A stretch of DNA of 64,000 nucleotides, from NCBI RefSeq assembly GCF_009914755.1, contig NC_060943.1; one strand, 5' to 3'. Both the position numbers and the translations under genes were made by a program. A model generated the notes under the pieces. The model saw only the letters and a list, made by a program, of their open reading frames with translations. It was not told where the DNA came from and did not search any database. Numbering within the stretch: the stretch's first letter is position 1; every line of letters begins with the position of its first letter. This stretch comes from the human T2T-CHM13v2.0 reference genome, Homo sapiens. Positions 1 to 64,000 of the stretch are shown here, in pieces.

Positions 1-215
1 ATGCCATTCTCCTGCCTCAGCCTCCCAAAGAGCTGGGACTACAGGCGCCCGACACCACGCCCAGCTAAGGTTTTTGCATTTATTATTTTTTTTTTTTGTA
101 GGGACGGGCTTTCACCGTGTTAGCCAGGACGGTCTCGATCTCCTGCCCTCGTGATGCACCCGCCTGAGCCTCCCGAAGTGCTCGGATTACAGGCATGAGC
201 CACCATGCACGGCCC
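1..215 (-). mobile_element. AluY-like SINE, truncated by the window start (equivalent to 7363-7671)
   Basis: Antisense Alu text: gccattctcctgcctcagcctccc...gctgggactacaggcgccc...tttcaccgtgttagccagga...ggattacaggcatgagccacc. Confidence 0.92.
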
Positions 216-620
216 AGAAATGGAGATTTTTGAGCAAACACATTAAAGAAAAGAAACGCAAATAGACGAAACTCATTTTAACATTTTTATTTAACCCAAG
301 GAATACAGATATAATCAACACCAATACAATTGATGTCACAGTGATGACTAAGATACATGCTACAATCCTTCATTCTCAGATGCAAAATCTAGTATGTGTT
401 TTACAGCAAACGTCAGTTGGAAACTGAACGTCGATCACACATGCTTGATGTGCATGTCAATTTCATGAGAGTTACAATCTCAGGAGAAGTCTCACATAGC
501 GTAAGAGTCCAAACATACCTTCAAGTGTTTCGACAAGTTCTTCACTACTCATTCTTAGAACTGAATTTACCAACAACAATCCCAGCCTATTCATTGCTGA
601 ACTGCATCCCATTGAAAGAA
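216..620. mobile_element. Old hAT-Charlie DNA transposon relic (Charlie5/MER33-like); recurs in each unit
   Basis: Segments cacattaaagaaaagaaac...ttttatttaacccaa, aaatctagtatgtgttttacagca and ccaaacatacc resemble the recalled MER33/Charlie5 consensus. Its left end (tccagtagaaata, ~7002-7015 in the next unit) is separated by two Alus. Boundaries approximate. Confidence 0.6.
286..291 (-). terminator. Candidate polyadenylation signal AATAAA for the PRR23D-like gene
   Basis: tttatt on + strand; the first canonical AATAAA I found downstream of the stop at 1405 (~1.1 kb 3'UTR); T/GT-rich sequence follows on the minus strand. Confidence 0.4.
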
Positions 621-1404
621 TGGGTCACAGTTCCTCTCTCTAGACACTGTGGAACGACATTGAAGGCCCCTCCATCTTTTGGCGATTGTGAGGACAGGTG
701 CTAGAAGCCTCTGCCCTCAGCCTTGTCCACGTGAGTTCTAATTCCTTTAGAACAACTATCTCAGGGTGGGAAAGATGGTTCCAATGCTAAGTGCCTATTG
801 CATTGATTATGAATCAATGAAACTCTTTCTCCCTGGGGGTTGTCCCAGTTGGATTCCAAGCAGCACTGTCAGAGTGTTCCAGCTTCTCCACATGCTCCGC
901 AGCCCTTGGGATGGTGAGTGATTGTCACGGTGGCTTCTGGGAGAGCTTCTTGGTTGTGGTTGAAGGTGTATTTGACGTGCATTTCCCCAGGGGAGGGACA
1001 GTGAACGCTTTTTGAAGTGGTTCTTTACATCCCCTTTGAGGAAATGTCTGCTCAAGTCTCTGGCTGGGTTTTGAACAGAATCATTTGTTTGTCCCATTGG
1101 AGTTTTGACAACTCTGTGTATTCTGAGTATGAGCAGTCCTTGCACGTATATGAGATTTGCAAATATTTTGTGCCCCAATCTCAAGGTTGCTCTTTGATAC
1201 AAATCAAGAGCATCTGAGGCAGAGCAAAGGTTCAGGTGAGAGGACGGAGCATTTCTCCACCTCTCCAGCATGCGCAGCATCTCTCTCCTCCGAGATGCCG
1301 AGACATGTGTGCAGGGAGACACCATGAAAAAGCAGGTGTGCTTCATTCTGAATAGAGCGTCTCTGATTCCCGTCTGGTGCGTGAGGGTGCATGGCCCATG
1401 AGCC

Positions 1405-3799
1405 TTAGAAGAGACGTCTTCGGGCCTTGCACGTTGGCCTCCATAGAAACTTGTGGCAAATTCTGGGCTCCGGACTGGGTGATGGAGGTAGAGGTCTGAG
1501 GGCAGAGGTGGGCAGGGGCTCCAGGCCGTGGAGATCCAAGTGGAATTCTTCAGGCAGAGCCTGTCTCCAGGGACTAGGCTTGGGCATTTGGGATGAGCCC
1601 TGGGGGACGGCCGCTCTGTAGTCAGGTTTGAGGTAGAGGACACGCCAGGAAGAAGGGCTGACTCCATGCACAAGGTTTGCTGGGGGTCCCATCAGGGGCA
1701 GGAAGCCTTGGGGAGCCTCACCCTCTTCTACTGAAGGCGCCACACACACATTCTCTGCTCTCTGGGCTCTCACAGATCCATTTTCAATGTCAATCTCCCA
1801 GACAGTCTCTGTACTAGTGAGCAGGAGCCAGCGGGCATGGGCAGGGTACAAGAGATCCTTCAGGGACATCAAGAGTTGCTCAGGGACCACCAGGAGCTGC
1901 ACATTGAGGAGGCTGAGTCGCAGGGCTCCCTGTGGGTCCAGCCCCAGGAACTCCTGCCCCAGGCGCAGGTGCAGGACCATTCCTGGTTCCAAGACCGCGA
2001 TGATCATCTTCCTCTGGGGAAGCTGTGGGCCCTGGGGGAGAAAAGCCGTGGGTCAGTCATTGTCCTCTGAGGGTGGCTCAAACAGGGAGAGAGCAAGGCG
2101 GGGAGCTGCCAGTAACTTCCCCAGGCATAAATGAAACCCCGCAGGGACACCCAGAATTGGCACCTGTATTGACGCCCCTTGGGACGGTGATTTCCTGCAA
2201 GTCCCCTAGGGCCTGGAGCTCAGGCAGACCTGTCTCACCCACGCCCACCTAGGTGGTGTGACCTTACCTGGGGCAGCTCCAGGGGCAGCTGTGCAGGGTG
2301 GTGGGGAGCTGGCTGTACCGGAGCTGGTTCTGCACCTGTGGAGAGAGCAGAGTGTGCAGGTGAAAGCCCTTGTCATGCAGGATGCCCTTGAGGGTTCAAG
2401 GTGCCACCGTGAGAAAGACCAAATACAGAAGAAGCCAGGTACAGGACACCCAGCCACGGAGCTGCAGGAGGAAGCTCCCGACACTCTGGACAGCACAGCT
2501 GCTCGCCTCATGACGTGACGGGACACTGGCTTGGTAGCAGGGGACTCAGGATGAAAAAGAGAAGATGCCTCACCTGGATGAGGACCCAGCTCCTCCACTT
2601 TCTGGCGTTTTGGGGCATTTGATGGCGTGCCGCTGGAGCTGTAGGACAGAGAGACACAGTCAGATTTCGGGCAGTTCCCTAACGTCCAATTCCCTGAATC
2701 CCCACAAATTCACTCCACTTCCCTGCCTTTCATTCAAGGCCACAGACTCGTCATCCACTTCCTGTGAGACCTGCTCCCAATCTGTCCTAACTCCCAGCTG
2801 TTCTTGTTCTCACCCCATCTACCTGAGCTTCCCTGGGTGAAGAAAAGGCAGGGAAGGAGGGTCGGTGCCCACAGGGAGCAGTTTACCCTTTCAGGAGCTC
2901 ATGCAGATGAGAGTTGGAAAACTCTCCTTGGGTGTGAGGAGCTGGAGAAAGATGTTGAGATCCCGGAGAGGTGGCACCTCTGTCTACACAGGTAACAAAG
3001 GAATGGGGTCTTAGGATTCGAATCACAGCAGGAGAAGAGGAAGGAATTTGTCGGGCATGACGGCATGCGCCTGTAATCCCAGCACTTTGGGAGGCCAAGG
3101 TCGGAGGATTGCTTGAGTCCAGGAGTTTGAGAGCAGCCTGGGCAACATGGTGAAAGCTAGTCTCCACTAAAAATACTAAACATTAGTGGGTCATGGTGGT
3201 GCATGCCTGTGGTCTCACCTACTCAGGAGGCTCAGGTGGGAGGATCACCTGCGACTCAGAGGTGGAGCCCGCAGTCAGCTAAAATCACGCCACTGCACTC
3301 CAGTGTGGACCATCGGAGTGAGACGCTGTCTCAATAAAATAAATCAGTAAATAAGACAAATAGAAAAATTAAAAATGAAAAAAGGAGGAAACTGTTTTAT
3401 TTTTCCTAGTAGATCTTGAAACTCTCACATCATGTCCTACAATCTCCCTTCTTGCAGAACACAGAACCCATTCCCTGTGGAGCTGGTTGGGTGGATTGAA
3501 AGTGGGGCTGCCCTGAGATATGTGTGTGGTTGCGATGTAGAAGCCTTCCCAGCACCCTGTGATGACTTACGGGCACCTCACTTCCCTCTGGCCCCAAATT
3601 CAAAACATCCAATCTCATGGCAGGTTCATGCACCCTTTTCCCTTCCCCTCTCTCCAACACACACCCACACATCCCACAGGCAGGTCACCCCGCAGGCGTC
3701 CCCAGCACATAGCAAAGCTCACCCGCTCTCTCCTGCGTGGTCGCTCTTGGATTCGGTGCAGGAATCACTGGGGCTTCTTGGGCGCCGGGAACCTTTCAT
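1405..3799 (-). CDS. PRR23D-like proline-rich protein, copy 1; 4 coding exons 3799-3723, 2638-2574, 2335-2268, 2031-1405; 278 aa
   Basis: ttcaccATG start. Junctions: GG|gtgagc...tctctgtcctacag|C (phase 2), G|gtgagg...tgctctctccacag|GT (phase 1), CAG|gtaagg...ttttctcccccag|GGC (phase 0). 77+65+68+627=837 nt open to TAA. Product [87 protein letters not shown]...[31 protein letters not shown]. Family call rests on recalled PRR23D1 motifs (RRxRSP, PKRxxVE, LELPQ, LHGxE, LRPxPPSPSP, ARRxLF). Confidence 0.85.
3051..3345 (+). mobile_element. AluJ-like SINE in intron 1, antisense to the gene; recurs in each unit
   Basis: gcctgtaatcccagcactttgggaggccaagg...ggattgcttgagtccaggagtttgag (AluJ-type), dimer linker ctaaaaatac, A-rich tail. 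Confidence 0.92.
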
Positions 3800-7362: not shown

Positions 7363-7671
7363 TTCTTCTTTTGATGAGACGGAACCTCGCACTGTGGCCC
7401 AGGCTGGAGTGCAGTGGAGTGACCTCGGCTCACTGCAAGCTCTGCCTCCTGGGGTCATGCCATTCTCCTGCCTCAGCCTCCCATAGAGCTGGGACTACAG
7501 GCGCCCGACACCACGCCCAGCTAAGGTTTTTGCATTTATTATTTTTTTTTTTTGTAGGGACGGTCTTTCACCGTGTTAGCCAGGACGGTCTCGATCTCCT
7601 GCCCTCGTGATGCACCCGCCTGAGCCCCCCGAAGTGCTCGGATTACAGGCATGAGCCACCATGCACGGCCC
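7363..7671 (-). mobile_element. AluY-like SINE, antisense; recurs in each unit
   Basis: ctgcaagctctgcctcc, gccattctcc, ttagccagga.ggtctcgatctcctg..ctcgtgat (AluY-type diagnostics); 17-bp target-site duplication agaaatggagatttttg at 7346-7362 and 7672-7688. Confidence 0.92.
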
Positions 7672-8860: not shown

Positions 8861-11259
8861 TTAGAAGAGACGTCTTCGGGCCTTGCACGTTGGCCTCCAT
8901 AGAAACTTGTGGCAAATTCTGGGCTCCGGACTGGGTGATGGAGTTAGAGGTCTGAGGGCAGAGGTGGGCAGGGGCTCCAGGCCGTGGAGATCCAAGTGGA
9001 ATTCTTCAGGCAGAGCCTGTCTCCAGGGACTAGGCTTGGGCATTTGGGATGAGCCCTGGGGGACGGCCGCTCTGTAGTCAGGTTTGAGGTAGAGGACACG
9101 CCAGGAAGAAGGGCTGACTCCATGCACAAGGTTTGCTGGGGGTCCCATCAGGGGCAGGAAGCCTTGGGGAGCCTCACCCTCTTCTACTGAAGGCGCCACA
9201 CACACATTCTCTGCTCTCTGGGCTCTCACAGATCCATTTTCAATGTCAATCTCCCAGACAGTCTCTGTACTAGTGAGCAGGAGCCAGCGGGCATGGGCAG
9301 GGTACAAGAGATCCTTCAGGGACATCAAGAGTTGCTCAGGGACCACCAGGAGCTGCACATTGAGGAGGCTGAGTCGCAGGGCTCCCTGTGGGTCCAGCCC
9401 CAGGAACTCCTGCCCCAGGCGCAGGTGCAGGACCATTCCTGGTTCCAAGACCGCGATGATCATCTTCCTCTGGGGAAGCTGTGGGCCCTGGGGGAGAAAA
9501 GCCGTGGGTCAGTCATTGTCCTCTGAGGGTGGCTCAAACAGGGAGAGAGCAAGGCGGGGAGCTGCCAGTAACTTCCCCAGGCATAAATGAAACCCCGCAG
9601 GGACACCCAGAATTGGCACCTGTATTGACGCCCCTTGGGACGGTGATTTCCTGCAAGTCCCCTAGGGCCTGGAGCTCAGGCAGACCTGTCTCACCCACGC
9701 CCACCTAGGTGGTGTGACCTTACCTGGGGCAGCTCCAGGGGCAGCTGTGCAGGGTGGTGGGGAGCTGGCTGTACCGGAGCTGGTTCTGCACCTGTGGAGA
9801 GAGCAGAGTGTGCAGGTGAAAGCCCTTGTCATGCAGGATGCCCTTGAGGGTTCAAGGTGCCACCGTGAGAAAGACCAAATACAGAAGAAGCCAGGTACAG
9901 GACACCCAGCCACGGAGCTGCAGGAGGAAGCTCCCGACACTCTGGACAGCACAGCTGCTCGCCTCATGACGTGACGGGACACTGGCTTGGTAGCAGGGGA
10001 CTCAGGATGAAAAAGAGAAGATGCCTCACCTGGATGAGGACCCAGCTCCTCCACTTTCTGGCGTTTTGGGGCATTTGATGGCGTGCCGCTGGAGCTGTAG
10101 GACAGAGAGAGAGACACAGTCAGATTTCGGGCAGTTCCCTAACGTCCAATTCCCTGAATCCCCACAAATTCACTCCACTTCCCTGCCTTTCATTCAAGGC
10201 CACAGACTCGTCATCCACTTCCTGTGAGACCTGCTCCCAATCTGTCCTAACTCCCAGCTGTTCTTGTTCTCACCCCATCTACCTGAGCTTCCCTGGGTGA
10301 AGAAAAGGCAGGGAAGGAGGGTCGGTGCCCACAGGGAGCAGTTTACCCTTTCAGGAGCTCATGCAGATGAGAGTTGGAAAACTCTCCTTGGGTGTGAGGA
10401 GCTGGAGAAAGATGTTGAGATCCCGGAGAGGTGGCACCTCTGTCTACACAGGTAACAAAGGAATGGGGTCTTAGGATTCGAATCACAGCAGGAGAAGAGG
10501 AAGGAATTTGTCGGGCATGACGGCATGCGCCTGTAATCCCAGCACTTTGGGAGGCCAAGGTCGGAGGATTGCTTGAGTCCAGGAGTTTGAGAGCAGCCTG
10601 GGCAACATGGTGAAAGCTAGTCTCCACTAAAAATACTAAACATTAGTGGGTCATGGTGGTGCATGCCTGTGGTCTCACCTACTCAGGAGGCTCAGGTGGG
10701 AGGATCACCTGCGACTCAGAGGTGGAGCCCGCAGTCAGCTAAAATCACGCCACTGCACTCCAGTGTGGACCATCGGAGTGAGACGCTGTCTCAATAAAAT
10801 AAATCAGTAAATAAGACAAATAGAAAAATTAAAAATGAAAAAAGGAGGAAACTGTTTTATTTTTCCTAGTAGATCTTGAAACTCTCACATCATGTCCTAC
10901 AATCTCCCTTCTTGCAGAACACAGAACCCATTCCCTGTGGAGCTGGTTGGGTGGATTGAAAGTGGGGCTGCCCTGAGATATGTGTGTGGTTGCGATGTAG
11001 AAGCCTTCCCAGCACCCTGTGATGACTTACGGGCACCTCACTTCCCTCTGGCCCCAAATTCAAAACATCCAATCTCATGGCAGGTTCATGCACCCTTTTC
11101 CCTTCCCCTCTCTCCAACACACACCCACACATCCCACAGGCAGGTCACCCCGCAGGCGTCCCCAGCACATAGCAAAGCTCACCCGCTCTCTCCTGCGTGG
11201 TCGCTCTTGGATTCGGTGCAGGAATCACTGGGGCTTCTTGGGCGCCGGGAACCTTTCAT
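8861..11259 (-). CDS. PRR23D-like protein, copy 2; exons 11259-11183, 10094-10030, 9791-9724, 9487-8861; P252T variant
   Basis: Same splice sites and frame as copy 1; g>t at 8944 gives LRPLTPSP. Confidence 0.85.
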
Positions 11260-16328: not shown

Positions 16329-18727
16329 TTAGAAGAGACGTCTTCGGGCCTTGCACGTTGGCCTCCATAGAAACTTGTGGCAAATTCTGGGCTCCGGACT
16401 GGGTGATGGAGTTAGAGGTCTGAGGGCAGAGGTGGGCAGGGGCTCCAGGCCGTGGAGATCCAAGTGGAATTCTTCAGGCAGAGCCTGTCTCCAGGGACTA
16501 GGCTTGGGCATTTGGGATGAGCCCTGGGGGACGGCCGCTCTGTAGTCAGGTTTGAGGTAGAGGACACGCCAGGAAGAAGGGCTGACTCCATGCACAAGGT
16601 TTGCTGGGGGTCCCATCAGGGGCAGGAAGCCTTGGGGAGCCTCACCCTCTTCTACTGAAGGCGCCACACACACATTCTCTGCTCTCTGGGCTCTCACAGA
16701 TCCATTTTCAATGTCAATCTCCCAGACAGTCTCTGTACTAGTGAGCAGGAGCCAGCGGGCATGGGCAGGGTACAAGAGATCCTTCAGGGACATCAAGAGT
16801 TGCTCAGGGACCACCAGGAGCTGCACATTGAGGAGGCTGAGTCGCAGGGCTCCCTGTGGGTCCAGCCCCAGGAACTCCTGCCCCAGGCGCAGGTGCAGGA
16901 CCATTCCTGGTTCCAAGACCGCGATGATCATCTTCCTCTGGGGAAGCTGTGGGCCCTGGGGGAGAAAAGCCGTGGGTCAGTCATTGTCCTCTGAGGGTGG
17001 CTCAAACAGGGAGAGAGCAAGGCGGGGAGCTGCCAGTAACTTCCCCAGGCATAAATGAAACCCCGCAGGGACACCCAGAATTGGCACCTGTATTGACGCC
17101 CCTTGGGACGGTGATTTCCTGCAAGTCCCCTAGGGCCTGGAGCTCAGGCAGACCTGTCTCACCCACGCCCACCTAGGTGGTGTGACCTTACCTGGGGCAG
17201 CTCCAGGGGCAGCTGTGCAGGGTGGTGGGGAGCTGGCTGTACCGGAGCTGGTTCTGCACCTGTGGAGAGAGCAGAGTGTGCAGGTGAAAGCCCTTGTCAT
17301 GCAGGATGCCCTTGAGGGTTCAAGGTGCCACCGTGAGAAAGACCAAATACAGAAGAAGCCAGGTACAGGACACCCAGCCACGGAGCTGCAGGAGGAAGCT
17401 CCCGACACTCTGGACAGCACAGCTGCTCGCCTCATGACGTGACGGGACACTGGCTTGGTAGCAGGGGACTCAGGATGAAAAAGAGAAGATGCCTCACCTG
17501 GATGAGGACCCAGCTCCTCCACTTTCTGGCGTTTTGGGGCATTTGATGGCGTGCCGCTGGAGCTGTAGGACAGAGAGAGAGACACAGTCAGATTTCGGGC
17601 AGTTCCCTAACGTCCAATTCCCTGAATCCCCACAAATTCACTCCACTTCCCTGCCTTTCATTCAAGGCCACAGACTCGTCATCCACTTCCTGTGAGACCT
17701 GCTCCCAATCTGTCCTAACTCCCAGCTGTTCTTGTTCTCACCCCATCTACCTGAGCTTCCCTGGGTGAAGAAAAGGCAGGGAAGGAGGGTCGGTGCCCAC
17801 AGGGAGCAGTTTACCCTTTCAGGAGCTCATGCAGATGAGAGTTGGAAAACTCTCCTTGGGTGTGAGGAGCTGGAGAAAGATGTTGAGATCCCGGAGAGGT
17901 GGCACCTCTGTCTACACAGGTAACAAAGGAATGGGGTCTTAGGATTCGAATCACAGCAGGAGAAGAGGAAGGAATTTGTCGGGCATGACGGCATGCGCCT
18001 GTAATCCCAGCACTTTGGGAGGCCAAGGTCGGAGGATTGCTTGAGTCCAGGAGTTTGAGAGCAGCCTGGGCAACATGGTGAAAGCTAGTCTCCACTAAAA
18101 ATACTAAACATTAGTGGGTCATGGTGGTGCATGCCTGTGGTCTCACCTACTCAGGAGGCTCAGGTGGGAGGATCACCTGCGACTCAGAGGTGGAGCCCGC
18201 AGTCAGCTAAAATCACGCCACTGCACTCCAGTGTGGACCATCGGAGTGAGACGCTGTCTCAATAAAATAAATCAGTAAATAAGACAAATAGAAAAATTAA
18301 AAATGAAAAAAGGAGGAAACTGTTTTATTTTTCCTAGTAGATCTTGAAACTCTCACATCATGTCCTACAATCTCCCTTCTTGCAGAACACAGAACCCATT
18401 CCCTGTGGAGCTGGTTGGGTGGATTGAAAGTGGGGCTGCCCTGAGATATGTGTGTGGTTGCGATGTAGAAGCCTTCCCAGCACCCTGTGATGACTTACGG
18501 GCACCTCACTTCCCTCTGGCCCCAAATTCAAAACATCCAATCTCATGGCAGGTTCATGCACCCTTTTCCCTTCCCCTCTCTCCAACACACACCCACACAT
18601 CCCACAGGCAGGTCACCCCGCAGGCGTCCCCAGCACATAGCAAAGCTCACCCGCTCTCTCCTGCGTGGTCGCTCTTGGATTCGGTGCAGGAATCACTGGG
18701 GCTTCTTGGGCGCCGGGAACCTTTCAT
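16329..18727 (-). CDS. PRR23D-like protein, copy 3; exons 18727-18651, 17562-17498, 17259-17192, 16955-16329; P252T variant
   Basis: Intact ATG, splice sites and stop; t at 16412 gives P252T. Confidence 0.85.
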
Positions 18728-23799: not shown

Positions 23800-26198
<2,399 letters not shown>

Positions 26199-28689: not shown

Positions 28690-29483
28690 CTAAATTCTAT
28701 ATCAAAAAATTAAAAAAAAAAAAAAAGAAGGCTGTTTGTTGACCATTTGAGTGGCCAGTCTTGGTGCTTCCTGGTGGGCGAGGAGAGCCCTACCCCATTC
28801 CTACCCATTCCAGTAGTCATGGCATAAGAGTGATTCTCACTTTCTGCTATAGCCTCCTTATCCATTGGCTGAAATGATTGTTTTTTAATGTGTCTTATAA
28901 ATGCGTCCATAGCAAAAAAAATTGAATTGACTTTTATAGGGACTCTTTCGGGGATTGTTACCCATCATTCCATAATTTGTTTGTACTCCTAGAAAAGGGA
29001 AGTATGCCGAGCACAGTGGATATTTCGTCTCAAATAATAAATAAATAACCAAATAGAAAAGAAAGAAAAGGAAGTAAAGGGAAATATACAAATATACAAG
29101 GTGTTAGGAGAGAGTTGCTAATCGTGATTCCCCCTTAATTGTCCAAACAGACCACTTCTGGGGATCTATTCGTAAAAGACTCGTTAGAAGTGCAGACTCA
29201 TGCATTTGAGAATCACTCAGGGAAATCTGAAGATGACCTGTGGTGGGGGTGTAAATGGATACTTAAATGTGTCTTGTGATTGTGTGAGAGTGTGACTGTG
29301 TGTTTGTGTGTGTGCTGTCATCTGTGGAGTGGGGGATCCTCTTTTGCCTTGAGAAAGCTCATCTCTGTCCACTTACTCTGGGCTCTACCATCTGTGCCTT
29401 GTATCCAGTAGAAATAAAACAGTTTGCGGCAGAAATGGAGTTTTATTTTATTTTACTTTACTTTTTATTAGGATTATTTGTAG

Positions 29484-29684
<201 letters not shown>

Positions 29685-38713: not shown

Positions 38714-41112
38714 TTAGAAGAGACGTCTTCGGGCCTTGCACGTTGGCCTCCATAGAAACTTGTGGCAAATTCTGGGCTCCGGACTGGGTGATGGAGGTAG
38801 AGGTCTGAGGGCAGAGGTGGGCAGGGGCTCCAGGCCGTGGAGATCCAAGTGGAATTCTTCAGGCAGAGCCTGTCTCCAGGGACTAGGCTTGGGCATTTGG
38901 GATGAGCCCTGGGGGACGGCCGCTCTGTAGTCAGGTTTGAGGTAGAGGACACGCCAGGAAGAAGGGCTGACTCCATGCACAAGGTTTGCTGGGGGTCCCA
39001 TCAGGGGCAGGAAGCCTTGGGGAGCCTCACCCTCTTCTACTGAAGGCGCCACACACACATTCTCTGCTCTCTGGGCTCTCACAGATCCATTTTCAATGTC
39101 AATCTCCCAGACAGTCTCTGTACTAGTGAGCAGGAGCCAGCGGGCATGGGCAGGGTACAAGAGATCCTTCAGGGACATCAAGAGTTGCTCAGGGACCACC
39201 AGGAGCTGCACATTGAGGAGGCTGAGTCGCAGGGCTCCCTGTGGGTCCAGCCCCAGGAACTCCTGCCCCAGGCGCAGGTGCAGGACCATTCCTGGTTCCA
39301 AGACCGCGATGATCATCTTCCTCTGGGGAAGCTGTGGGCCCTGGGGGAGAAAAGCCGTGGGTCAGTCATTGTCCTCTGAGGGTGGCTCAAACAGGGAGAG
39401 AGCAAGGCGGGGAGCTGCCAGTAACTTCCCCAGGCATAAATGAAACCCCGCAGGGACACCCAGAATTGGCACCTGTATTGACGCCCCTTGGGACGGTGAT
39501 TTCCTGCAAGTCCCCTAGGGCCTGGAGCTCAGGCAGACCTGTCTCACCCACGCCCACCTAGGTGGTGTGACCTTACCTGGGGCAGCTCCAGGGGCAGCTG
39601 TGCAGGGTGGTGGGGAGCTGGCTGTACCGGAGCTGGTTCTGCACCTGTGGAGAGAGCAGAGTGTGCAGGTGAAAGCCCTTGTCATGCAGGATGCCCTTGA
39701 GGGTTCAAGGTGCCACCGTGAGAAAGACCAAATACAGAAGAAGCCAGGTACAGGACACCCAGCCACGGAGCTGCAGGAGGAAGCTCCCGACACTCTGGAC
39801 AGCACAGCTGCTCGCCTCATGACGTGACGGGACACTGGCTTGGTAGCAGGGGACTCAGGATGAAAAAGAGAAGATGCCTCACCTGGATGAGGACCCAGCT
39901 CCTCCACTTTCTGGCGTTTTGGGGCATTTGATGGCGTGCCGCTGGAGCTGTAGGACAGAGAGAGAGACACAGTCAGATTTCGGGCAGTTCCCTAACGTCC
40001 AATTCCCTGAATCCCCACAAATTCACTCCACTTCCCTGCCTTTCATTCAAGGCCACAGACTCGTCATCCACTTCCTGTGAGACCTGCTCCCAATCTGTCC
40101 TAACTCCCAGCTGTTCTTGTTCTCACCCCATCTACCTGAGCTTCCCTGGGTGAAGAAAAGGCAGGGAAGGAGGGTCGGTGCCCACAGGGAGCAGTTTACC
40201 CTTTCAGGAGCTCATGCAGATGAGAGTTGGAAAACTCTCCTTGGGTGTGAGGAGCTGGAGAAAGATGTTGAGATCCCGGAGAGGTGGCACCTCTGTCTAC
40301 ACAGGTAACAAAGGAATGGGGTCTTAGGATTCGAATCACAGCAGGAGAAGAGGAAGGAATTTGTCGGGCATGACGGCATGCGCCTGTAATCCCAGCACTT
40401 TGGGAGGCCAAGGTCGGAGGATTGCTTGAGTCCAGGAGTTTGAGAGCAGCCTGGGCAACATGGTGAAAGCTAGTCTCCACTAAAAATACTAAACATTAGT
40501 GGGTCATGGTGGTGCATGCCTGTGGTCTCACCTACTCAGGAGGCTCAGGTGGGAGGATCACCTGCGACTCAGAGGTGGAGCCCGCAGTCAGCTAAAATCA
40601 CGCCACTGCACTCCAGTGTGGACCATCGGAGTGAGACGCTGTCTCAATAAAATAAATCGGTAAATAAGACAAATAGAAAAATTAAAAATGAAAAAAGGAG
40701 GAAACTGTTTTATTTTTCCTAGTAGATCTTGAAACTCTCACATCATGTCCTACAATCTCCCTTCTTGCAGAACACAGAACCCATTCCCTGTGGAGCTGGT
40801 TGGGTGGATTGAAAGTGGGGCTGCCCTGAGATATGTGTGTGGTTGCGATGTAGAAGCCTTCCCAGCACCCTGTGATGACTTACGGGCACCTCACTTCCCT
40901 CTGGCCCCAAATTCAAAACATCCAATCTCATGGCAGGTTCATGCACCCTTTTCCCTTCCCCTCTCTCCAACACACACCCACACATCCCACAGGCAGGTCA
41001 CCCCGCAGGCGTCCCCAGCACATAGCAAAGCTCACCCGCTCTCTCCTGCGTGGTCGCTCTTGGATTCGGTGCAGGAATCACTGGGGCTTCTTGGGCGCCG
41101 GGAACCTTTCAT
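38714..41112 (-). CDS. PRR23D-like protein, copy 6; exons 41112-41036, 39947-39883, 39644-39577, 39340-38714
   Basis: Intact; translated segments identical to copy 1. Confidence 0.85.
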
Positions 41113-46167: not shown

Positions 46168-48566
46168 TTAGAAGAGACGTCTTCGGGCCTTGCACGTTGG
46201 CCTCCATAGAAACTTGTGGCAAATTCTGGGCTCCGGACTGGGTGATGGAGGTAGAGGTCTGAGGGCAGAGGTGGGCAGGGGCTCCAGGCCGTGGAGATCC
46301 AAGTGGAATTCTTCAGGCAGAGCCTGTCTCCAGGGACTAGGCTTGGGCATTTGGGATGAGCCCTGGGGGACGGCCGCTCTGTAGTCAGGTTTGAGGTAGA
46401 GGACACGCCAGGAAGAAGGGCTGACTCCATGCACAAGGTTTGCTGGGGGTCCCATCAGGGGCAGGAAGCCTTGGGGAACCTCACCCTCTTCTACTGAAGG
46501 CGCCACACACACATTCTCTGCTCTCTGGGCTCTCACAGATCCATTTTCAATGTCAATCTCCCAGACAGTCTCTGTACTAGTGAGCAGGAGCCAGCGGGCA
46601 TGGGCAGGGTACAAGAGATCCTTCAGGGACATCAAGAGTTGCTCAGGGACCACCAGGAGCTGCACATTGAGGAGGCTGAGTCGCAGGGCTCCCTGTGGGT
46701 CCAGCCCCAGGAACTCCTGCCCCAGGCGCAGGTGCAGGACCATTCCTGGTTCCAAGACCGCGATGATCATCTTCCTCTGGGGAAGCTGTGGGCCCTGGGG
46801 GAGAAAAGCCGTGGGTCAGTCATTGTCCTCTGAGGGTGGCTCAAACAGGGAGAGAGCAAGGCGGGGAGCTGCCAGTAACTTCCCCAGGCATAAATGAAAC
46901 CCCGCAGGGACACCCAGAATTGGCACCTGTATTGACGCCCCTTGGGACGGTGATTTCCTGCAAGTCCCCTAGGGCCTGGAGCTCAGGCAGACCTGTCTCA
47001 CCCACGCCCACCTAGGTGGTGTGACCTTACCTGGGGCAGCTCCAGGGGCAGCTGTGCAGGGTGGTGGGGAGCTGGCTGTACCGGAGCTGGTTCTGCACCT
47101 GTGGAGAGAGCAGAGTGTGCAGGTGAAAGCCCTTGTCATGCAGGATGCCCTTGAGGGTTCAAGGTGCCACCGTGAGAAAGACCAAATACAGAAGAAGCCA
47201 GGTACAGGACACCCAGCCACGGAGCTGCAGGAGGAAGCTCCCGACACTCTGGACAGCACAGCTGCTCGCCTCATGACGTGACGGGACACTGGCTTGGTAG
47301 CAGGGGACTCAGGATGAAAAAGAGAAGATGCCTCACCTGGATGAGGACCCAGCTCCTCCACTTTCTGGCGTTTTGGGGCATTTGATGGCGTGCCGCTGGA
47401 GCTGTAGGACAGAGAGAGAGACACAGTCAGATTTCGGGCAGTTCCCTAACGTCCAATTCCCTGAATCCCCACAAATTCACTCCACTTCCCTGCCTTTCAT
47501 TCAAGGCCACAGACTCGTCATCCACTTCCTGTGAGACCTGCTCCCAATCTGTCCTAACTCCCAGCTGTTCTTGTTCTCACCCCATCTACCTGAGCTTCCC
47601 TGGGTGAAGAAAAGGCAGGGAAGGAGGGTCGGTGCCCACAGGGAGCAGTTTACCCTTTCAGGAGCTCATGCAGATGAGAGTTGGAAAACTCTCCTTGGGT
47701 GTGAGGAGCTGGAGAAAGATGTTGAGATCCCGGAGAGGTGGCACCTCTGTCTACACAGGTAACAAAGGAATGGGGTCTTAGGATTCGAATCACAGCAGGA
47801 GAAGAGGAAGGAATTTGTCGGGCATGACGGCATGCGCCTGTAATCCCAGCACTTTGGGAGGCCAAGGTCGGAGGATTGCTTGAGTCCAGGAGTTTGAGAG
47901 CAGCCTGGGCAACATGGTGAAAGCTAGTCTCCACTAAAAATACTAAACATTAGTGGGTCATGGTGGTGCATGCCTGTGGTCTCACCTACTCAGGAGGCTC
48001 AGGTGGGAGGATCACCTGCGACTCAGAGGTGGAGCCCACAGTCAGCTAAAATCACGCCACTGCACTCCAGTGTGGACCATCGGAGTGAGACGCTGTCTCA
48101 GTAAAATAAATCAGTAAATAAGACAAATAGAAAAATTAAAAATGAAAAAAGGAGGAAACTGTTTTATTTTTCCTAGTAGATCTTGAAACTCTCACATCAT
48201 GTCCTACAATCTCCCTTCTTGCAGAACACAGAACCCATTCCCTGTGGAGCTGGTTGGGTGGATTGAAAGTGGGGCTGCCCTGAGATATGTGTGTGGTTGC
48301 GATGTAGAAGCCTTCCCAGCACCCTGTGATGACTTACGGGCACCTCACTTCCCTCTGGCTCCAAATTCAAAACATCCAATCTCATGGCAGGTTCATGCAC
48401 CCTTTTCCCTTCCCCTCTCTCCAACACACACCCACACATCCCACAGGCAGGTCACCCCGCAGGCGTCCCCAGCACATAGCAAAGCTCACCCGCTCTCTCC
48501 TGCGTGGTCGCTCTTGGATTCGGTGCAGGAATCACTGGGGCTTCTTGGGCGCCGGGAACCTTTCAT
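46168..48566 (-). CDS. PRR23D-like protein, copy 7; exons 48566-48490, 47401-47337, 47098-47031, 46794-46168; A176V variant
   Basis: Intact; g>a at 46478 gives EGEVPQG. Confidence 0.85.
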
Positions 48567-53636: not shown

Positions 53637-56031
53637 TTAGAAGAGACGTCTTCGGGCCTTGCACGTTGGCCTCCATAGAAACTTGTGGCAAATTCTGGGC
53701 TCCGGACTGGGTGATGGAGTTAGAGGTCTGAGGGCAGAGGTGGGCAGGGGCTCCAGGCCGTGGAGATCCAAGTGGAATTCTTCAGGCAGAGCCTGTCTCC
53801 AGGGACTAGGCTTGGGCATTTGGGATGAGCCCTGGGGGACGGCCGCTCTGTAGTCAGGTTTGAGGTAGAGGACACGCCAGGAAGAAGGGCTGACTCCATG
53901 CACAAGGTTTGCTGGGGGTCCCATCAGGGGCAGGAAGCCTTGGGGAGCCTCACCCTCTTCTACTGAAGGCGCCACACACACATTCTCTGCTCTCTGGGCT
54001 CTCACAGATCCATTTTCAATGTCAATCTCCCAGACAGTCTCTGTACTAGTGAGCAGGAGCCAGCGGGCATGGGCAGGGTACAAGAGATCCTTCAGGGACA
54101 TCAAGAGTTGCTCAGGGACCACCAGGAGCTGCACATTGAGGAGGCTGAGTCGCAGGGCTCCCTGTGGGTCCAGCCCCAGGAACTCCTGCCCCAGGCGCAG
54201 GTGCAGGACCATTCCTGGTTCCAAGACCGCGATGATCATCTTCCTCTGGGGAAGCTGTGGGCCCTGGGGGAGAAAAGCCGTGGGTCAGTCATTGTCCTCT
54301 GAGGGTGGCTCAAACAGGGAGAGAGCAAGGCGGGGAGCTGCCAGTAACTTCCCCAGGCATAAATGAAACCCCGCAGGGACACCCAGAATTGGCACCTGTA
54401 TTGACGCCCCTTGGGACGGTGATTTCCTGCAAGTCCCCTAGGGCCTGGAGCTCAGGCAGACCTGTCTCACCCACGCCCACCTAGGTGGTGTGACCTTACC
54501 TGGGGCAGCTCCAGGGGCAGCTGTGCAGGGTGGTGGGGAGCTGGCTGTACCGGAGCTGGTTCTGCACCTGTGGAGAGAGCAGAGTGTGCAGGTGAAAGCC
54601 CTTGTCATGCAGGATGCCCTTGAGGGTTCAAGGTGCCACCGTGAGAAAGACCAAATACAGAAGAAGCCAGGTACAGGACACCCAGCCACGGAGCTGCAGG
54701 AGGAAGCTCCCGACACTCTGGACAGCACAGCTGCTCGCCTCATGACGTGACGGGACACTGGCTTGGTAGCAGGGGACTCAGGATGAAAAAGAGAAGATGC
54801 CTCACCTGGATGAGGACCCAGCTCCTCCACTTTCTGGCGTTTTGGGGCATTTGATGGCGTGCCGCTGGAGCTGTAGGACAGAGAGACACAGTCAGATTTC
54901 GGGCAGTTCCCTAACGTCCAATTCCCTGAATCCCCACAAATTCACTCCACTTCCCTGCCTTTCATTCAAGGCCACAGACTCGTCATCCACTTCCTGTGAG
55001 ACCTGCTCCCAATCTGTCCTAACTCCCAGCTGTTCTTGTTCTCACCCCATCTACCTGAGCTTCCCTGGGTGAAGAAAAGGCAGGGAAGGAGGGTCGGTGC
55101 CCACAGGGAGCAGTTTACCCTTTCAGGAGCTCATGCAGATGAGAGTTGGAAAACTCTCCTTGGGTGTGAGGAGCTGGAGAAAGATGTTGAGATCCCGGAG
55201 AGGTGGCACCTCTGTCTACACAGGTAACAAAGGAATGGGGTCTTAGGATTCGAATCACAGCAGGAGAAGAGGAAGGAATTTGTCGGGCATGACGGCATGC
55301 GCCTGTAATCCCAGCACTTTGGGAGGCCAAGGTCGGAGGATTGCTTGAGTCCAGGAGTTTGAGAGCAGCCTGGGCAACATGGTGAAAGCTAGTCTCCACT
55401 AAAAATACTAAACATTAGTGGGTCATGGTGGTGCATGCCTGTGGTCTCACCTACTCAGGAGGCTCAGGTGGGAGGATCACCTGCGACTCAGAGGTGGAGC
55501 CCGCAGTCAGCTAAAATCACGCCACTGCACTCCAGTGTGGACCATCGGAGTGAGACGCTGTCTCAATAAAATAAATCAGTAAATAAGACAAATAGAAAAA
55601 TTAAAAATGAAAAAAGGAGGAAACTGTTTTATTTTTCCTAGTAGATCTTGAAACTCTCACATCATGTCCTACAATCTCCCTTCTTGCAGAACACAGAACC
55701 CATTCCCTGTGGAGCTGGTTGGGTGGATTGAAAGTGGGGCTGCCCTGAGATATGTGTGTGGTTGCGATGTAGAAGCCTTCCCAGCACCCTGTGATGACTT
55801 ACGGGCACCTCACTTCCCTCTGGCCCCAAATTCAAAACATCCAATCTCATGGCAGGTTCATGCACCCTTTTCCCTTCCCCTCTCTCCAACACACACCCAC
55901 ACATCCCACAGGCAGGTCACCCCGCAGGCGTCCCCAGCACATAGCAAAGCTCACCCGCTCTCTCCTGCGTGGTCGCTCTTGGATTCGGTGCAGGAATCAC
56001 TGGGGCTTCTTGGGCGCCGGGAACCTTTCAT
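53637..56031 (-). CDS. PRR23D-like protein, copy 8; exons 56031-55955, 54870-54806, 54567-54500, 54263-53637; P252T variant
   Basis: Intact; t at 53720 gives P252T. Confidence 0.85.
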
Positions 56032-61094: not shown

Positions 61095-63492
61095 TTAGAA
61101 GAGACGTCTTCGGGCCTTGCACGTTGGCCTCCATAGAAACTTGTGGCAAATTCTGGGCTCCGGACTGGGTGATGGAGGTAGAGGTCTGAGGGCAGAGGTG
61201 GGCAGGGGCTCCAGGCCATGGAGATCCAAGTGGAATTCTTCAGGCAGAGCCTGTCTCCAGGGACTAGGCTTGGGCATTTGGGATGAGCCCTGGGGGACGG
61301 CCGCTCTGTAGTCAGGTTTGAGGTAGAGGACACGCCAGGAAGAAGGGCTGACTCCATGCACAAGGTTTGCTGGGGGTCCCATCAGGGGCAGGAAGCCTTG
61401 GGGAGCCTCACCCTCTTCTACTGAAGGCGCCACACACACATTCTCTGCTCTCTGGGCTCTCACAGATCCATTTTCAATGTCAATCTCCCAGACAGTCTCT
61501 GTACTAGTGAGCAGGAGCCAGCGGGCATGGGCAGGGTACAAGAGATCCTTCAGGGACATCAAGAGTTGCTCAGGGACCACCAGGAGCTGCACATTGAGGA
61601 GGCTGAGTCGCAGGGCTCCCTGTGGGTCCAGCCCCAGGAACTCCTGCCCCAGGCGCAGGTGCAGGACCATTCCTGGTTCCAAGACCGCGATGATCATCTT
61701 CCTCTGGGGAAGCTGTGGGCCCTGGGGGAGAAAAGCCGTGGGTCAGTCATTGTCCTCTGAGGGTGGCTCAAACAGGGAGAGAGCAAGGCGGGGAGCTGCC
61801 AGTAACTTCCCCAGGCATAAATGAAACCCCGCAGGGACACCCAGAATTGGCACCTGTATTGACGCCCCTTGGGACGGTGATTTCCTGCAAGTCCCCTAGG
61901 GCCTGGAGCTCAGGCAGACCTGTCTCACCCACGCCCACCTAGGTGGTGTGACCTTACCTGGGGCAGCTCCAGGGGCAGCTGTGCAGGGTGGTGGGGAGCT
62001 GGCTGTACCGGAGCTGGTTCTGCACCTGTGGAGAGAGCAGAGTGTGCAGGTGAAAGCCCTTGTCATGCAGGATGCCCTTGAGGGTTCAAGGTGCCACCGT
62101 GAGAAAGACCAAATACAGAAGAAGCCAGGTACAGGACACCCAGCCACGGAGCTGCAGGAGGAAGCTCCCGACACTCTGGACAGCACAGCTGCTCGCCTCA
62201 TGACGTGACGGGACACTGGCTTGGTAGCAGGGGACTCAGGATGAAAAAGAGAAGATGCCTCACCTGGATGAGGACCCAGCTCCTCCACTTTCTGGCGTTT
62301 TGGGGCATTTGATGGCGTGCCGCTGGAGCTGTAGGACAGAGAGACACAGTCAGATTTCGGGCAGTTCCCTAACGTCCAATTCCCTGAATCCCCACAAATT
62401 CACTCCACTTCCCTGCCTTTCATTCAAGGCCACAGACTCGTCATCCACTTCCTGTGAGACCTGCTCCCAATCTGTCCTAACTCCCAGCTGTTCTTGTTCT
62501 CACCCCATCTACCTGAGCTTCCCTGGGTGAAGAAAAGGCAGGGAAGGAGGGTCGGTGCCCACAGGGAGCAGTTTACCCTTTCAGGAGCTCATGCAGATGA
62601 GAGTTGGAAAACTCTCCTTGGGTGTGAGGAGCTGGAGAAAGATGTTGAGATCCCGGAGAGGTGGCACCTCTGTCTACACAGGTAACAAAGGAATGGGGTC
62701 TTAGGATTCGAATCACAGCAGGAGAAGAGGAAGGAATTTGTCGGGCATGACGGCATGCGCCTGTAATCCCAGCACTTTGGGAGGCCAAGGTCGGAGGATT
62801 GCTTGAGTCCAGGAGTTTGAGAGCAGCCTGGGCAACATGGTGAAAGCTAGTCTCCACTAAAAATACTAAACATTAGTGGGTCATGGTGGTGCATGCCTGT
62901 GGTCTCACCTACTCAGGAGGCTCAGGTGGGAGGATCACCTGCGACTCAGAGGTGGAGCCCGCAGTCAGCTAAAATCACGCCACTGCACTCCAGTGTGGAC
63001 CATCGGAGTGAGACGCTGTCTCAATAAAATAAATCAGTAAATAAGACAAATAGAAAAATTAAAAATGAAAAAAGGAGGAAACTGTTTTATTTTTCCTAGT
63101 AGATCTTGAAACTCTCACATCATGTCCTACAATCTCCCTTCTTGCAGAACACAGAACCCATTCCCTGTGGAGCTGGTTGGGTGGATTGAAAGTGGCCGAC
63201 CTGCCCTGAGATATGTGTGTGGTTGCGATGTAGAAGCCTTCCCAGCACCCTGTGATGACTTACGGGCACCTCACTTCCCTCTGGCCCCAAATTCAAAACA
63301 TCCAATCTCATGGCAGGTTCATGCACCCTTTTCCCTTCCCCTCTCTCCAACACACACCCACACATCCCACAGGCAGGTCACCCCGCAGGCGTCCCCAGCA
63401 CATAGCAAAGCTCACCCGCTCTCTCCTGCGTGGTCGCTCTTGGATTCGGTGCAGGAATCACTGGGGCTTCTTGGGCGCCGGGAACCTTTCAT
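61095..63492 (-). CDS. PRR23D-like protein, copy 9; exons 63492-63416, 62328-62264, 62025-61958, 61721-61095
   Basis: Intact; synonymous CAC>CAT at 61218. Confidence 0.85.
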
Positions 63493-64000
63493 GGTGAAAA
63501 TTTCCAGGGTTCTCCAAGTCAGCCACTGCCAGTGTTTGTCTGTCTCCTGCAAAGATTTCTTCTTGGCTCCCGAATCCTTTAGTTCCTTTGAGAGAGTGGT
63601 GTCAGCCCCAAAGCTGCTCCCGAAGGCTTGGGTTGTGTAGCGACGGGGCTGTGGCCAGCGGCAGGTGGATGAGGCTCTGACAACTGAGCTCTTGGGGGAA
63701 TCTTGTACACTGTCAGCAGGGGGTGGAGCCAGGGCATTTGTCAGCAGGAACTGATGTGATTGGCTGTTCCTGGTATGACAACGGGAGGGGCCCTCATGGA
63801 GGATTGGGGCGTAACTCAATCCATAGATGACCGATCAACAGAACCTGCCTAATCCCATCAAGAGCCAACCTGTTTCCTGTCCCCTCCCATCCTCTAGGTC
63901 TTGCCTAATAATGATAGACACTTTCTGTCATACCCAATTCATCCATCGCTGAAATAGTTTTTCATGTGTGCCTTTTATATTTTCATGCAATAAAAATATG

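What the first reader, a model, noticed from the sequence alone, without database searches (positions are those of the whole stretch)
1..64000. Likely the 19p13.2 VNTR beside ZNF558, known as a cis-regulatory repeat rather than a gene array
Knowledge, from memory and to be verified: a VNTR with a ~7.46 kb unit downstream of ZNF558 was reported to be longer in chimpanzee, variable in humans and linked to ZNF558 silencing in neural progenitors; a Charlie5-containing ~7.5 kb tandem family has also been described on chr19. Seen: period 7454-7471 bp and a Charlie5-like relic. Inference: if so, the heterochromatin over the VNTR may exist to silence a multi-copy PRR23-like gene, with ZNF558 affected as a neighbour, and short arrays might de-repress the gene as D4Z4 contraction does for DUX4.
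Basis: partly seen in the sequence, partly recalled or inferred. Interest (0 to 1): 0.8.

Follow-up and report, generated by a model that had tools for sequence, protein, structure and literature searches.

The report
ZNF558 repeat hides PRR23-family gene array
The large tandem repeat next to ZNF558, published as non-coding regulatory DNA that differs between humans and chimpanzees, carries in nearly every unit an intact but unannotated copy of an old mammalian gene of the PRR23 family.

Summary
The whole window is tandem repeat with a period of 7,453-7,471 bp. It is part of a 22-unit, ~162-kb array in CHM13 that ends 14-19 kb from the 3' end of ZNF558. This is the published ZNF558 VNTR, also called MSat12 or the "Charlie 5" megasatellite. 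All three papers treat it as gene-free.

New here: each unit holds a four-exon, 278-codon minus-strand gene of the PRR23 family (Pfam PF10630, 82.9 bits). It has canonical splice sites and is intact in 21 of 22 units. RefSeq does not annotate it.

Evidence that it is a real gene:
- It groups with predicted genes of siamang, marmoset and loris in a clade that also holds horse, bats and tree shrew.
- An intronless chrX retrocopy spans all three exon junctions.
- Annotated PRR23D1 has the same exon structure.
- It keeps 56 of 59 deeply invariant residues; the retrocopy keeps 40.

Evidence against present function: near-neutral protein change in hominoids and no expression data.

The D4Z4-like de-repression idea is untested. 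The unit is CpG-poor, unlike D4Z4.

The parts
1..64000 (.). 8.6 units of the 7.46-kb ZNF558 VNTR (MSat12). The window lies wholly inside the 22-unit CHM13 array, chr19:8,736,169-8,898,135.
   Evidence: k-mer offsets 7,453-7,471; unit BLAST over the fetched flanks
1405..3799 (-). PRR23-like gene copy c10, stop to ATG. Four coding exons: 3799-3723, 2638-2574, 2335-2268, 2031-1405. Intact 278 codons.
8861..11259 (-). Gene copy c11. Intact; carries the P252T variant.
16329..18727 (-). Gene copy c12. Intact; P252T.
23800..26198 (-). Gene copy c13. Intact; the commonest protein form.
31260..33658 (-). Gene copy c14, the reference copy studied. Exon 1 33658-33582, exon 2 32493-32429, exon 3 32190-32123, exon 4 31886-31260 (TAA). 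All introns are GT-AG; phases 2, 1, 0.
38714..41112 (-). Gene copy c15. Intact.
46168..48566 (-). Gene copy c16. Intact; A176V.
53637..56031 (-). Gene copy c17. Intact; P252T.
61095..63492 (-). Gene copy c18. Intact.
33659..33736 (-). Inferred 5' UTR of copy c14. The chrX retrocopy alignment starts 78 nt upstream of the ATG. There is no upstream ATG, and the Kozak context has A at -3.
33737..34000 (-). Putative TATA-less, CpG-poor promoter. Two CCAAT boxes (~33969, ~33925) and a GC box (~33895) lie on the gene strand. Inferred, not shown to be active.
30363..31259 (-). Inferred 3' UTR of about 0.9 kb, the extent of colinear alignment with the retrocopy. There is no canonical AATAAA close to that end in the present human sequence; the next ones are at 30146 and 29942.
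33366..33385 (+). Site of published CRISPRi guide VNTR-g1: intron 1 of the gene, about 290 bp downstream of the ATG.
31745..31764 (+). Site of published guide VNTR-g3: inside the exon 4 coding sequence.
28796..28815 (-). Site of published guide VNTR-g2: intergenic part of the unit, about 2.4 kb beyond the stop codon.

Best explanation
The window is an internal stretch of the known macrosatellite downstream of ZNF558. Its repeat unit is not merely regulatory or transposon-derived DNA. It is a tandemly amplified, complete transcription unit of a eutherian PRR23-family gene: four coding exons, 278 aa, minus strand, the same orientation as ZNF558.

Shown: the gene structure, its intactness in 21 of 22 CHM13 units, its orthology, its ancestral germline expression and splicing (from the retrocopy), and long-term selection for an open frame.

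Taken from the literature: the array carries H3K9me3 in human and chimpanzee neural progenitors; copy number correlates inversely with ZNF558 expression; dCas9-KRAB at the array silences ZNF558.

Inferred: like its paralogues PRR23A-C (testis, spermatogonia), the gene is germline-restricted. It has a CpG-poor CCAAT/GC-box promoter. In somatic cells the many head-to-tail copies are packed into H3K9me3 chromatin, as tandem gene arrays commonly are. The size of that block sets how strongly the neighbour ZNF558 is repressed in cis. Whether the human copies still make a functional protein is about even odds.
For: - Period and place.
- Family: Pfam PF10630, 82.9 bits against a cut-off of 27, on the exon 4 ORF.
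- Gene model: the marmoset protein's N-terminus maps onto three further upstream exons. All six splice dinucleotides are canonical with compatible phases.
- Intactness: 21 of 22 copies have an intact ORF, ATG and splice sites.
- Retrocopy: the chrX copy is intronless across all three junctions, 78% identical over 1,860 nt.
- Parent against retrocopy: dN/dS 0.63, with CDS K 0.20 against 3' UTR K 0.28.
- Conserved residues: 56 of 59 columns invariant in marmoset, loris, bat and horse are kept in human, against 40 of 59 in the retrocopy.
- Tree: human + siamang + marmoset_a has 100/100 support, inside a clade with loris, horse, bats and tree shrew, and apart from primate PRR23D1.
- Paralogue: PRR23D1 has the same four coding exons at homologous junctions.
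- Neutral survival of the ORF plus splice sites: P about 0.015 at K=0.06 and about 1e-4 at K=0.14.
- Variation between units: SNV density is 4 per 837 bp in the CDS against 128 per 6,617 bp elsewhere, Fisher p=0.0012.
- Literature. PRR23A-C are testis/spermatogonia genes.
Against: - No expression evidence for the sense, spliced transcript in humans could be reached.
- RefSeq annotates no gene here, although it annotates a chr8 'PRR23D1-like' model in the same assembly.
- No human or great-ape protein of this type appears among named sources.
- On the human lineage since the gibbon split there are 8 polarised amino-acid changes in 203 columns (plus 9 unpolarised). The neutral expectation is 6.6-11, so omega is about 1 (the neutral K values are recalled).
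- Neutral survival of the ORF over hominoid times is not unlikely: P 0.24 at K=0.02 and 0.65 at K=0.006.
- Variants among the 21 aligned full units are 3 non-synonymous to 1 synonymous; one further copy carries a frameshift.
- The low SNV density covers the introns as well. 400 of 7,454 circular shifts (5.4%) are as low.
- No canonical poly(A) signal lies near the retrocopy-defined 3' end.
- The transcript characterised in the preprint is on the opposite strand.
Confidence: 0.6

Rival explanations
1. Purely cis-regulatory VNTR. The PRR23-like ORFs are a not-yet-broken relic, with constraint lost in hominoids. The array acts only as a length-dependent heterochromatin block, or as an enhancer or lncRNA source, for ZNF558, as published.
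For: - Amino-acid change is near-neutral on the human and siamang lineages.
- P(intact | neutral) is 0.24-0.65 over hominoid or hominin times.
- Among units there are 3 non-synonymous variants to 1 synonymous, plus one frameshifted copy.
- There is no RefSeq model and no human protein in named sources.
- Three papers treat the array as gene-free.
Against: - 21 of 22 copies are intact, with ATG, stop and all splice sites.
- 56 of 59 deeply invariant residues are retained, against 40 of 59 in the neutral retrocopy.
- The gene segment is the least variable part of the unit.
- Reads from a 20-70-copy array multi-map, so lack of annotation is weak evidence.
Confidence: 0.3
2. The heterochromatin primarily serves to silence the embedded gene, ZNF558 is collateral, and short arrays de-repress the PRR23-like gene.
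For: - Every unit has an ORF.
- H3K9me3 lies over the array, and transcription within the VNTR is seen in human (shorter array) but not chimpanzee progenitors.
- The preprint itself likens the locus to FSHD.
Against: - The unit is CpG-poor (o/e 0.35, no island).
- No inter-individual DNA-methylation variation was found at MSat12.
- The only characterised VNTR transcript is antisense to the gene.
- There is no evidence that the sense transcript tracks array length.
Confidence: 0.2
3. The published CRISPRi effect on ZNF558 runs through the gene itself. Either activity of the ZNF558-proximal PRR23-like promoter drives the plus-strand lncRNA as a divergent transcript, or the PRR23-like protein acts in trans. 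Heterochromatin spreading alone is not the cause.
For: - Two of the three guides lie in the gene: intron 1, about 290 bp from the ATG, and exon 4.
- The lncRNA starts in the VNTR and runs towards ZNF558, which is the direction of divergent transcription from a minus-strand promoter.
- CCAAT/GC-box promoters are often bidirectional (recalled).
Against: - There is no evidence that the gene is expressed in iPSCs or progenitors.
- The inverse correlation between copy number and ZNF558 expression fits repression in cis better than a dosage effect of an activator.
Confidence: 0.1
4. Chance ORFs or an assembly artefact.
For: None found.
Against: - The Pfam match has E 5.4e-23.
- Orthologues exist in at least 8 species.
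- The retrocopy validates the splicing.
- The array is reported independently in hg18, GRCh38 and CHM13.
Confidence: 0.01

Closest known systems
ZNF558 VNTR (Johansson et al., bioRxiv 2020 / Cell Stem Cell 2022), also MSat12 (Brahmachary 2014) and the 19p13.2 'Charlie 5' megasatellite (Warburton 2008)
   Same: It is the same locus. It lies downstream of ZNF558, the unit is 7.46 kb, and the published guides match once per unit.
   Different: All three papers treat it as gene-free or non-coding. 'PRR23' and 'open reading' occur 0 times in the preprint, and 'PRR23' occurs 0 times in Brahmachary 2014. Here every unit is shown to hold a complete PRR23-family gene. CHM13 has 22 units. The GRCh38 interval given in the preprint works out to about 7.9 units.
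D4Z4 / DUX4 macrosatellite at 4q35 (features recalled from general knowledge)
   Same: A polymorphic kilobase-scale tandem array, heterochromatic in somatic cells, with an ORF in each unit. A length-dependent effect on gene expression has been proposed.
   Different: D4Z4 is GC- and CpG-rich, and its ORF is intronless. Here GC is 49%, CpG o/e is 0.35 with no CpG island, and the gene has four exons and its own promoter-like region in each unit. There is no DUX4 motif in the unit. De-repression on contraction is untested.
Tandem germline or cancer-testis multicopy gene arrays such as CT47, TSPY, PRR20, TAF11-like and USP17/RS447 (recalled; CT47 is cited in Warburton 2008)
   Same: Head-to-tail units each carry a whole gene. 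Units are more than 99% identical. Copy number is variable. The gene family is expressed in the reproductive tract (PRR23A-C testis, PRR23D2 epididymis).
   Different: Those arrays are annotated as genes, and this one is not. Germline expression of this member is not shown. It also has a documented cis effect on a neighbouring KZFP gene.
PRR23D1/PRR23D2 (chr8p23.1) and PRR23A-C (chr3q23), Pfam DUF2476
   Same: The same domain, the same four coding exons as PRR23D1, and the shared C-terminal [RK]xLF and SPSP motifs.
   Different: Only 38-39% identical to PRR23D1/D2 and about 36% to PRR23A-C over exon 4. It falls in a separate clade with non-primate 'PRR23D1-like' genes. It is present in 22 tandem copies rather than as single genes.

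Membership tests
ZNF558 VNTR / MSat12 | Lies just downstream (3') of ZNF558 on 19p13.2 | tested here: met
   Homogeneous units end at chr19:8,898,135 and diverged edge fragments at 8,903,530. The ZNF558 3' end is at 8,917,114.
ZNF558 VNTR / MSat12 | Repeat unit of about 7,460 bp | tested here: met
   Offsets are 7,453-7,471. Unit lengths are 7,450-7,458. The preprint gives 7,460 bp.
ZNF558 VNTR / MSat12 | Published VNTR-specific guide sequences match the unit | tested here: met
   g1 has 8 hits, g2 8 and g3 9 exact hits in the window, one per unit.
ZNF558 VNTR / MSat12 | Copy number varies between people and species and correlates inversely with ZNF558 expression | not testable with these tools
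   Known from the literature only. A single haplotype is seen here (22 units).
PRR23 family (Pfam PF10630, DUF2476) | Domain match above Pfam's gathering score | tested here: met
   82.9 bits against a cut-off of 27, E 5.4e-23, profile positions 60-259 of 259. All but 2 of the 76 proteins listed in the profile search (P0019, P0020) carry PF10630.
PRR23 family (Pfam PF10630, DUF2476) | Gene structure shared with an annotated member | tested here: met
   PRR23D1 has four coding exons with junctions at homologous positions.
PRR23 family (Pfam PF10630, DUF2476) | Family-wide C-terminal [RK]xLF and SPSP motifs | tested here: met
   63 of 65 and 60 of 65 aligned rows, the human VNTR protein among them.
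PRR23 family (Pfam PF10630, DUF2476) | Expression restricted to the reproductive tract or germline | not testable with these tools
   Paralogues only: PRR23A-C testis/spermatogonia, PRR23D2 epididymis. The retrocopy implies past germline expression.
D4Z4/DUX4-type macrosatellite | ORF in every unit | tested here: met
   22 of 22 units carry the gene, and 21 are intact.
D4Z4/DUX4-type macrosatellite | GC-rich, CpG-island-like unit (feature recalled) | tested here: not met
   GC 0.49, CpG o/e 0.35. No 400-bp window has both GC above 0.55 and o/e above 0.6.
D4Z4/DUX4-type macrosatellite | Intronless, retrogene-type ORF (feature recalled) | tested here: not met
   Four exons with GT-AG introns. 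This locus is the parent, and the retrocopy is on chrX.
D4Z4/DUX4-type macrosatellite | Array contraction relaxes chromatin and de-represses the embedded gene | not testable with these tools
Tandem multicopy germline gene arrays | Each unit holds a whole gene with promoter-like and 3' UTR regions, and units are nearly identical | tested here: met
   (median difference between units 0.36%).

The most novel reading that the evidence does not exclude
The 'non-coding' VNTR credited with a human-specific switch in brain development is in fact a copy-number-variable array of a functional germline or early-embryo gene. The gene would encode a nuclear PRR23-family protein with a cyclin-docking-like C-terminal RxLF motif. 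Shortening of the array in humans would partly de-repress this gene, or its terminal promoter, which would drive the reported lncRNA as a divergent transcript. Part of what was ascribed to cis heterochromatin acting on ZNF558 would then run through, or be confounded by, the embedded gene. Two of the three CRISPRi guides hit that gene.
Probability: 0.15. Interest if true: 0.85.

Novelty: new member of a known kind. Interest (0 to 1): 0.62.

Why it matters
The ZNF558 VNTR is a prominent example of a structural variant said to rewire a gene network in human brain evolution. It has been interpreted as non-coding throughout.

If each unit is a live gene, three things follow:
- Humans carry some 20-40 diploid copies, and African apes more than 70, of an unannotated protein-coding gene whose dosage differs greatly between people and species.
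- The CRISPRi experiment that established cis-regulation also targeted that gene.
- The heterochromatin over the array has a simple rationale, namely somatic silencing of a germline gene array.

Even if the gene is a relic, it explains the origin of the macrosatellite: amplification of an old gene locus rather than of a transposon-built unit. It also adds a missing human member to the PRR23 family. It is a concrete case of a gene missed because its reads multi-map.

Tried and rejected
- TRF on the window found nothing. Its longest period is 500 bp, so this says nothing about a 7.5-kb period. k-mer offsets were used instead.
- A whole-unit DNA search of the genome was not scored because there were too many candidates.
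- The sigma-70 promoter and terminator scan is a bacterial model and irrelevant to human DNA. I disregard it.
- Rfam found 0 families in one unit.
- The Atlas search gave no usable hit.
- The family profile (A2) matched 0 PDB sequences at E<=1.
- Motif scans of the unit, using motifs recalled from memory: no DUX4 motif, no full CRE, no OCT4 octamer, no crude CTCF core.
- Higher-order repeat structure in the array: none clear. Mean differences are 20 at lag 1 and 21-25 at lags 2-7.
- Selection test from variation between units: CDS against the rest gives Fisher p=0.0012, but the circular-shift control gives 5.4%. I rejected this as decisive.
- 'Charlie5' could not be checked on the sequence because there is no transposon library. 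A search for Charlie5 + tandem + chr19 found 0 papers. Warburton's Table 2D supplied the label.

Literature searches for prior description of the gene all came back empty:
- macrosatellite + PRR23: 0 papers.
- ZNF558 + PRR23: 0 papers.
- '23D1-like': 0 papers.
- MSat12: only Brahmachary 2014 is relevant.
- PRR23D1/D2/E: 23 papers in the listing, all apparently gene-list or 8p23.1 CNV papers judging by their titles (listing only).

Limits on what I read:
- The published Cell Stem Cell version is not held, so only the preprint was read, and only as passages.
- Supplements are closed. The preprint's primer table and Supplementary Fig. 3I (lncRNA primer positions) and Brahmachary's Tables S6 and S10 (primate copy numbers) could bear on the strand of the transcripts and on when the array arose.

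Full report
**Observation.** The window is tandem repeat from end to end. Successive occurrences of identical 24-mers lie 7,453-7,471 bp apart along the whole 64 kb. TRF was blind to this only because its longest period is 500 bp. RefSeq places the window (chr19:8,804,001-8,868,000) in a 189-kb interval without any annotated gene or functional element. The interval lies between OR2Z1 and the 3' end of ZNF558, which is on the minus strand at 8,917,114-8,949,099. I fetched 130 kb of flanks and ran BLAST with one unit. CHM13 has 21 full units at 99.4-99.9% identity and one 5.3-kb partial unit at 99.1%, spanning 8,736,169-8,898,135. Fragments 90-92% identical sit at both edges, one of them inverted. 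The array therefore ends 14-19 kb from ZNF558.

**Identity with the published locus.** The bioRxiv version of Johansson et al. (passages read) makes the following points:
- A VNTR with a 7,460-bp unit lies downstream of ZNF558 (GRCh38 chr19:8,735,220-8,794,192).
- Mean diploid copy number is 24-43 in humans, above 70 in chimpanzee, bonobo and gorilla, and about 36 in orangutan.
- H3K9me3 lies over the array in both human and chimpanzee.
- Transcription within the VNTR is seen in human cells only.
- A lncRNA antisense to ZNF558 runs towards ZNF558.
- dCas9-KRAB at the VNTR silences ZNF558.

Its three guide sequences each match once per unit here. Brahmachary 2014 (passages) calls the array MSat12 and counts it among "13 non-coding macrosatellites". 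It reports an inverse correlation with ZNF558 expression (R = -0.46) and no variation in DNA methylation. Warburton 2008 (passages) lists it as a 7.5-kb "Charlie 5" megasatellite, in a class said not to contain genes. The Charlie5 label itself could not be checked on the sequence.

**What is in the unit.** Only 1,004 of 7,454 bp are soft-masked. GC is 49% and CpG o/e is 0.35, with no CpG island. A 200-aa minus-strand ORF matches Pfam PF10630 (DUF2476, the PRR23 family) at 82.9 bits against a cut-off of 27. Its closest named relatives are predicted "proline-rich protein 23D1-like" proteins of siamang (87%), marmoset, slow loris, a horseshoe bat and horse. The marmoset protein's N-terminus aligns to three further short minus-strand segments of the human unit. 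Reading the DNA shows four coding exons of 77, 65, 68 and 627 nt. The three introns are GT-AG with good pyrimidine tracts, the phases are 2, 1 and 0, and the ATG has A at -3. Together they encode 278 aa. A counting slip of mine was corrected. In CHM13, 21 of 22 copies have the ATG, open frame, stop and all six splice dinucleotides. One copy outside the window has a 1-bp deletion. Thirteen copies encode the same protein, six carry P252T, and two carry single changes. Nine intact copies lie in the window.

**Independent support for the gene model.** A genome-wide search with the exon 4 protein found the 22 chr19 copies and also a 63-65% identical, unannotated copy on chrX near ACTRT1. That copy aligns colinearly with the spliced model through all three exon junctions. 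It has no introns and is 78% identical over 1,860 nt, from 78 nt upstream of the ATG to about 0.9 kb beyond the stop. It is a processed retrocopy. The four-exon mRNA was therefore made in the germline of an ancestor, and the approximate transcript ends are known. The annotated paralogue PRR23D1 on chr8 has the same four coding exons at homologous positions.

**Relationships.** The VNTR protein is only 38-39% identical to human PRR23D1/D2 and about 36% to PRR23A-C over exon 4. A profile search returned 76 family proteins, all but two of them listed with PF10630. None was a human, chimpanzee, gorilla, orangutan or macaque protein of the VNTR type. In a maximum-likelihood tree of 36 rows that I chose from these:
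- Human VNTR + siamang (97/89) joins one marmoset protein (100/100) and then loris (89/91).
- This group sits inside a 100/100 clade that also holds horse + two bats, two tree-shrew proteins, and a separate primate-only PRR23D1 clade containing a second marmoset protein.
- The order of these four groups is unresolved.

The VNTR gene is thus the human representative of a eutherian gene distinct from PRR23D1. Synteny in other species could not be checked.

**Is it under selection?**

Evidence for:
- Parent against retrocopy gives dS 0.28 and dN 0.18, so dN/dS is 0.63. The 3' UTR has K 0.28.
- At 59 columns invariant in marmoset, loris, bat and horse, human keeps 56 and the retrocopy keeps 40.
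- A neutral simulation used the locus's own indel rate. Survival of the ORF, ATG and splice sites has P about 0.015 at lineage K = 0.06 and about 1e-4 at K = 0.14. The K values for primate splits are recalled.
- The gene segment is the least variable part of the unit. SNV sites number 4 per 837 in the CDS, 15 per 1,562 in introns and 113 per 5,055 in intergenic sequence.

Evidence against:
- The last contrast also covers the introns, and 5.4% of circular shifts are as low.
- Coding variants among units are 3 non-synonymous to 1 synonymous, plus one frameshift.
- Since the gibbon split the human protein shows 8 polarised changes in 203 columns (plus 9 unpolarised), against a neutral expectation of 6.6-11.
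- Neutral survival over hominoid times is not improbable, at P 0.24-0.65.

My reading is that long-term constraint is clear, and that present function in humans is about even odds.

**What the protein may be.** It has no solved relative by sequence and no Atlas lead, and structure prediction was off. Across 65 family rows:
- A C-terminal [RK]xLF motif is present in 63.
- An SPSP-type motif is present in 60.
- An N-terminal basic cluster is present in 59 of the 64 full-length rows.

From recalled motif definitions this suggests a nuclear protein that docks on cyclin-CDK and is phosphorylated at proline-directed sites. This is a lead, not a result. PRR23A-C are testis and spermatogonia genes, and PRR23D2 is said to be epididymis-specific (passages). 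PRR23B rises in 8C-like cells (passage).

**Mechanism.**

Shown here:
- The macrosatellite is an amplified gene locus.
- Each unit has a TATA-less, CpG-poor upstream region with two CCAAT boxes and a GC box.
- Each unit has about 0.9 kb of 3' UTR as defined by the retrocopy. No canonical poly(A) signal lies near that end.

From the literature: H3K9me3 over the array, and length-dependent repression of ZNF558 that can be induced with CRISPRi.

Inferred: the array is silenced in somatic cells as a tandem germline gene cluster, and ZNF558 feels the size of that block.

Two of the three published guides lie in the gene, one in intron 1 and one in exon 4. That experiment therefore cannot separate heterochromatin spreading from loss of the gene's own promoter activity. 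The reported plus-strand lncRNA could be the divergent transcript of the ZNF558-proximal copy.

As a family assignment it fails on CpG content and on the intron-bearing gene.

**Novelty.** The VNTR and its cis effect are known. The embedded intact gene is not mentioned in the preprint (0 occurrences of 'PRR23' and of 'open reading'). None of my searches found it in print. RefSeq annotates nothing here (finding header). The published journal version and all supplements could not be read. I rate it a new member of a known kind, namely tandem multicopy germline gene arrays, with consequences for how a well-known result is read.

Noticed in passing
L014:1829-3661 (CHM13 chrX about 126,468,829-126,470,661, minus strand): An unannotated processed retrocopy of the VNTR gene near ACTRT1. 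It is 78% identical over 1.86 kb and has 5 deleted CDS bases, but no in-frame stop in the parent's frame. That is fewer stops than I would roughly expect after such divergence, so it may have been functional for a time.
   Followed up: partly
window 33366-33385, 31745-31764, 28796-28815 (and once per unit elsewhere): The three published VNTR CRISPRi guides. g1 falls in intron 1 of the PRR23-like gene, g3 inside its exon 4 coding sequence, and g2 in intergenic unit sequence.
   Followed up: yes
chr19:8,741,446-8,898,135 (21 full units; window included): Units differ by a median of 27 SNVs (0.36%; range 1-43) with no clear higher-order repeat. That is less than the recalled human-chimpanzee divergence, so the present human units seem to share an ancestor within the hominin lineage.
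   Followed up: partly
L001-L002 (chr19:8,732,480-8,736,168) and L012 (8,898,132-8,903,530): The array edges hold partial units diverged by K 0.08-0.11, one of them inverted (8,901,811-8,903,530). A 1,772-bp, 63% GC, almost entirely soft-masked insert (8,734,397-8,736,168) sits exactly where identity to the unit jumps from 90% to 99%.
   Followed up: partly
L005 (chr19 copy c05, ATG at 8,770,491; outside the window): The only broken gene copy in the array. A 1-bp deletion in exon 4 shifts the frame at about codon 124.
   Followed up: yes
G000 chr8:12,465,092-12,470,866: RefSeq annotates a third chr8 'proline-rich protein 23D1-like' gene (LOC124906737) as protein-coding in CHM13. The pipeline therefore does call PRR23D-type models, yet it called none in the chr19 array.
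   Followed up: partly
window 31887-31901 (intron 3 just upstream of exon 4): The siamang model P0001 (216 aa, 'isoform X1') starts at a methionine aligned to a threonine codon inside what is intron 3 in human. That model is a single-exon reading that lacks exons 1-3.
   Followed up: partly
window 27182-27315, 29480-30071, 32918-33113: Soft-masked stretches of the unit: a CT-rich low-complexity run, and stretches over Alu-like ORF translations, one of them inside intron 1 of the gene. The 'Charlie 5' element named by Warburton 2008 could not be located without a transposon library.
   Followed up: no
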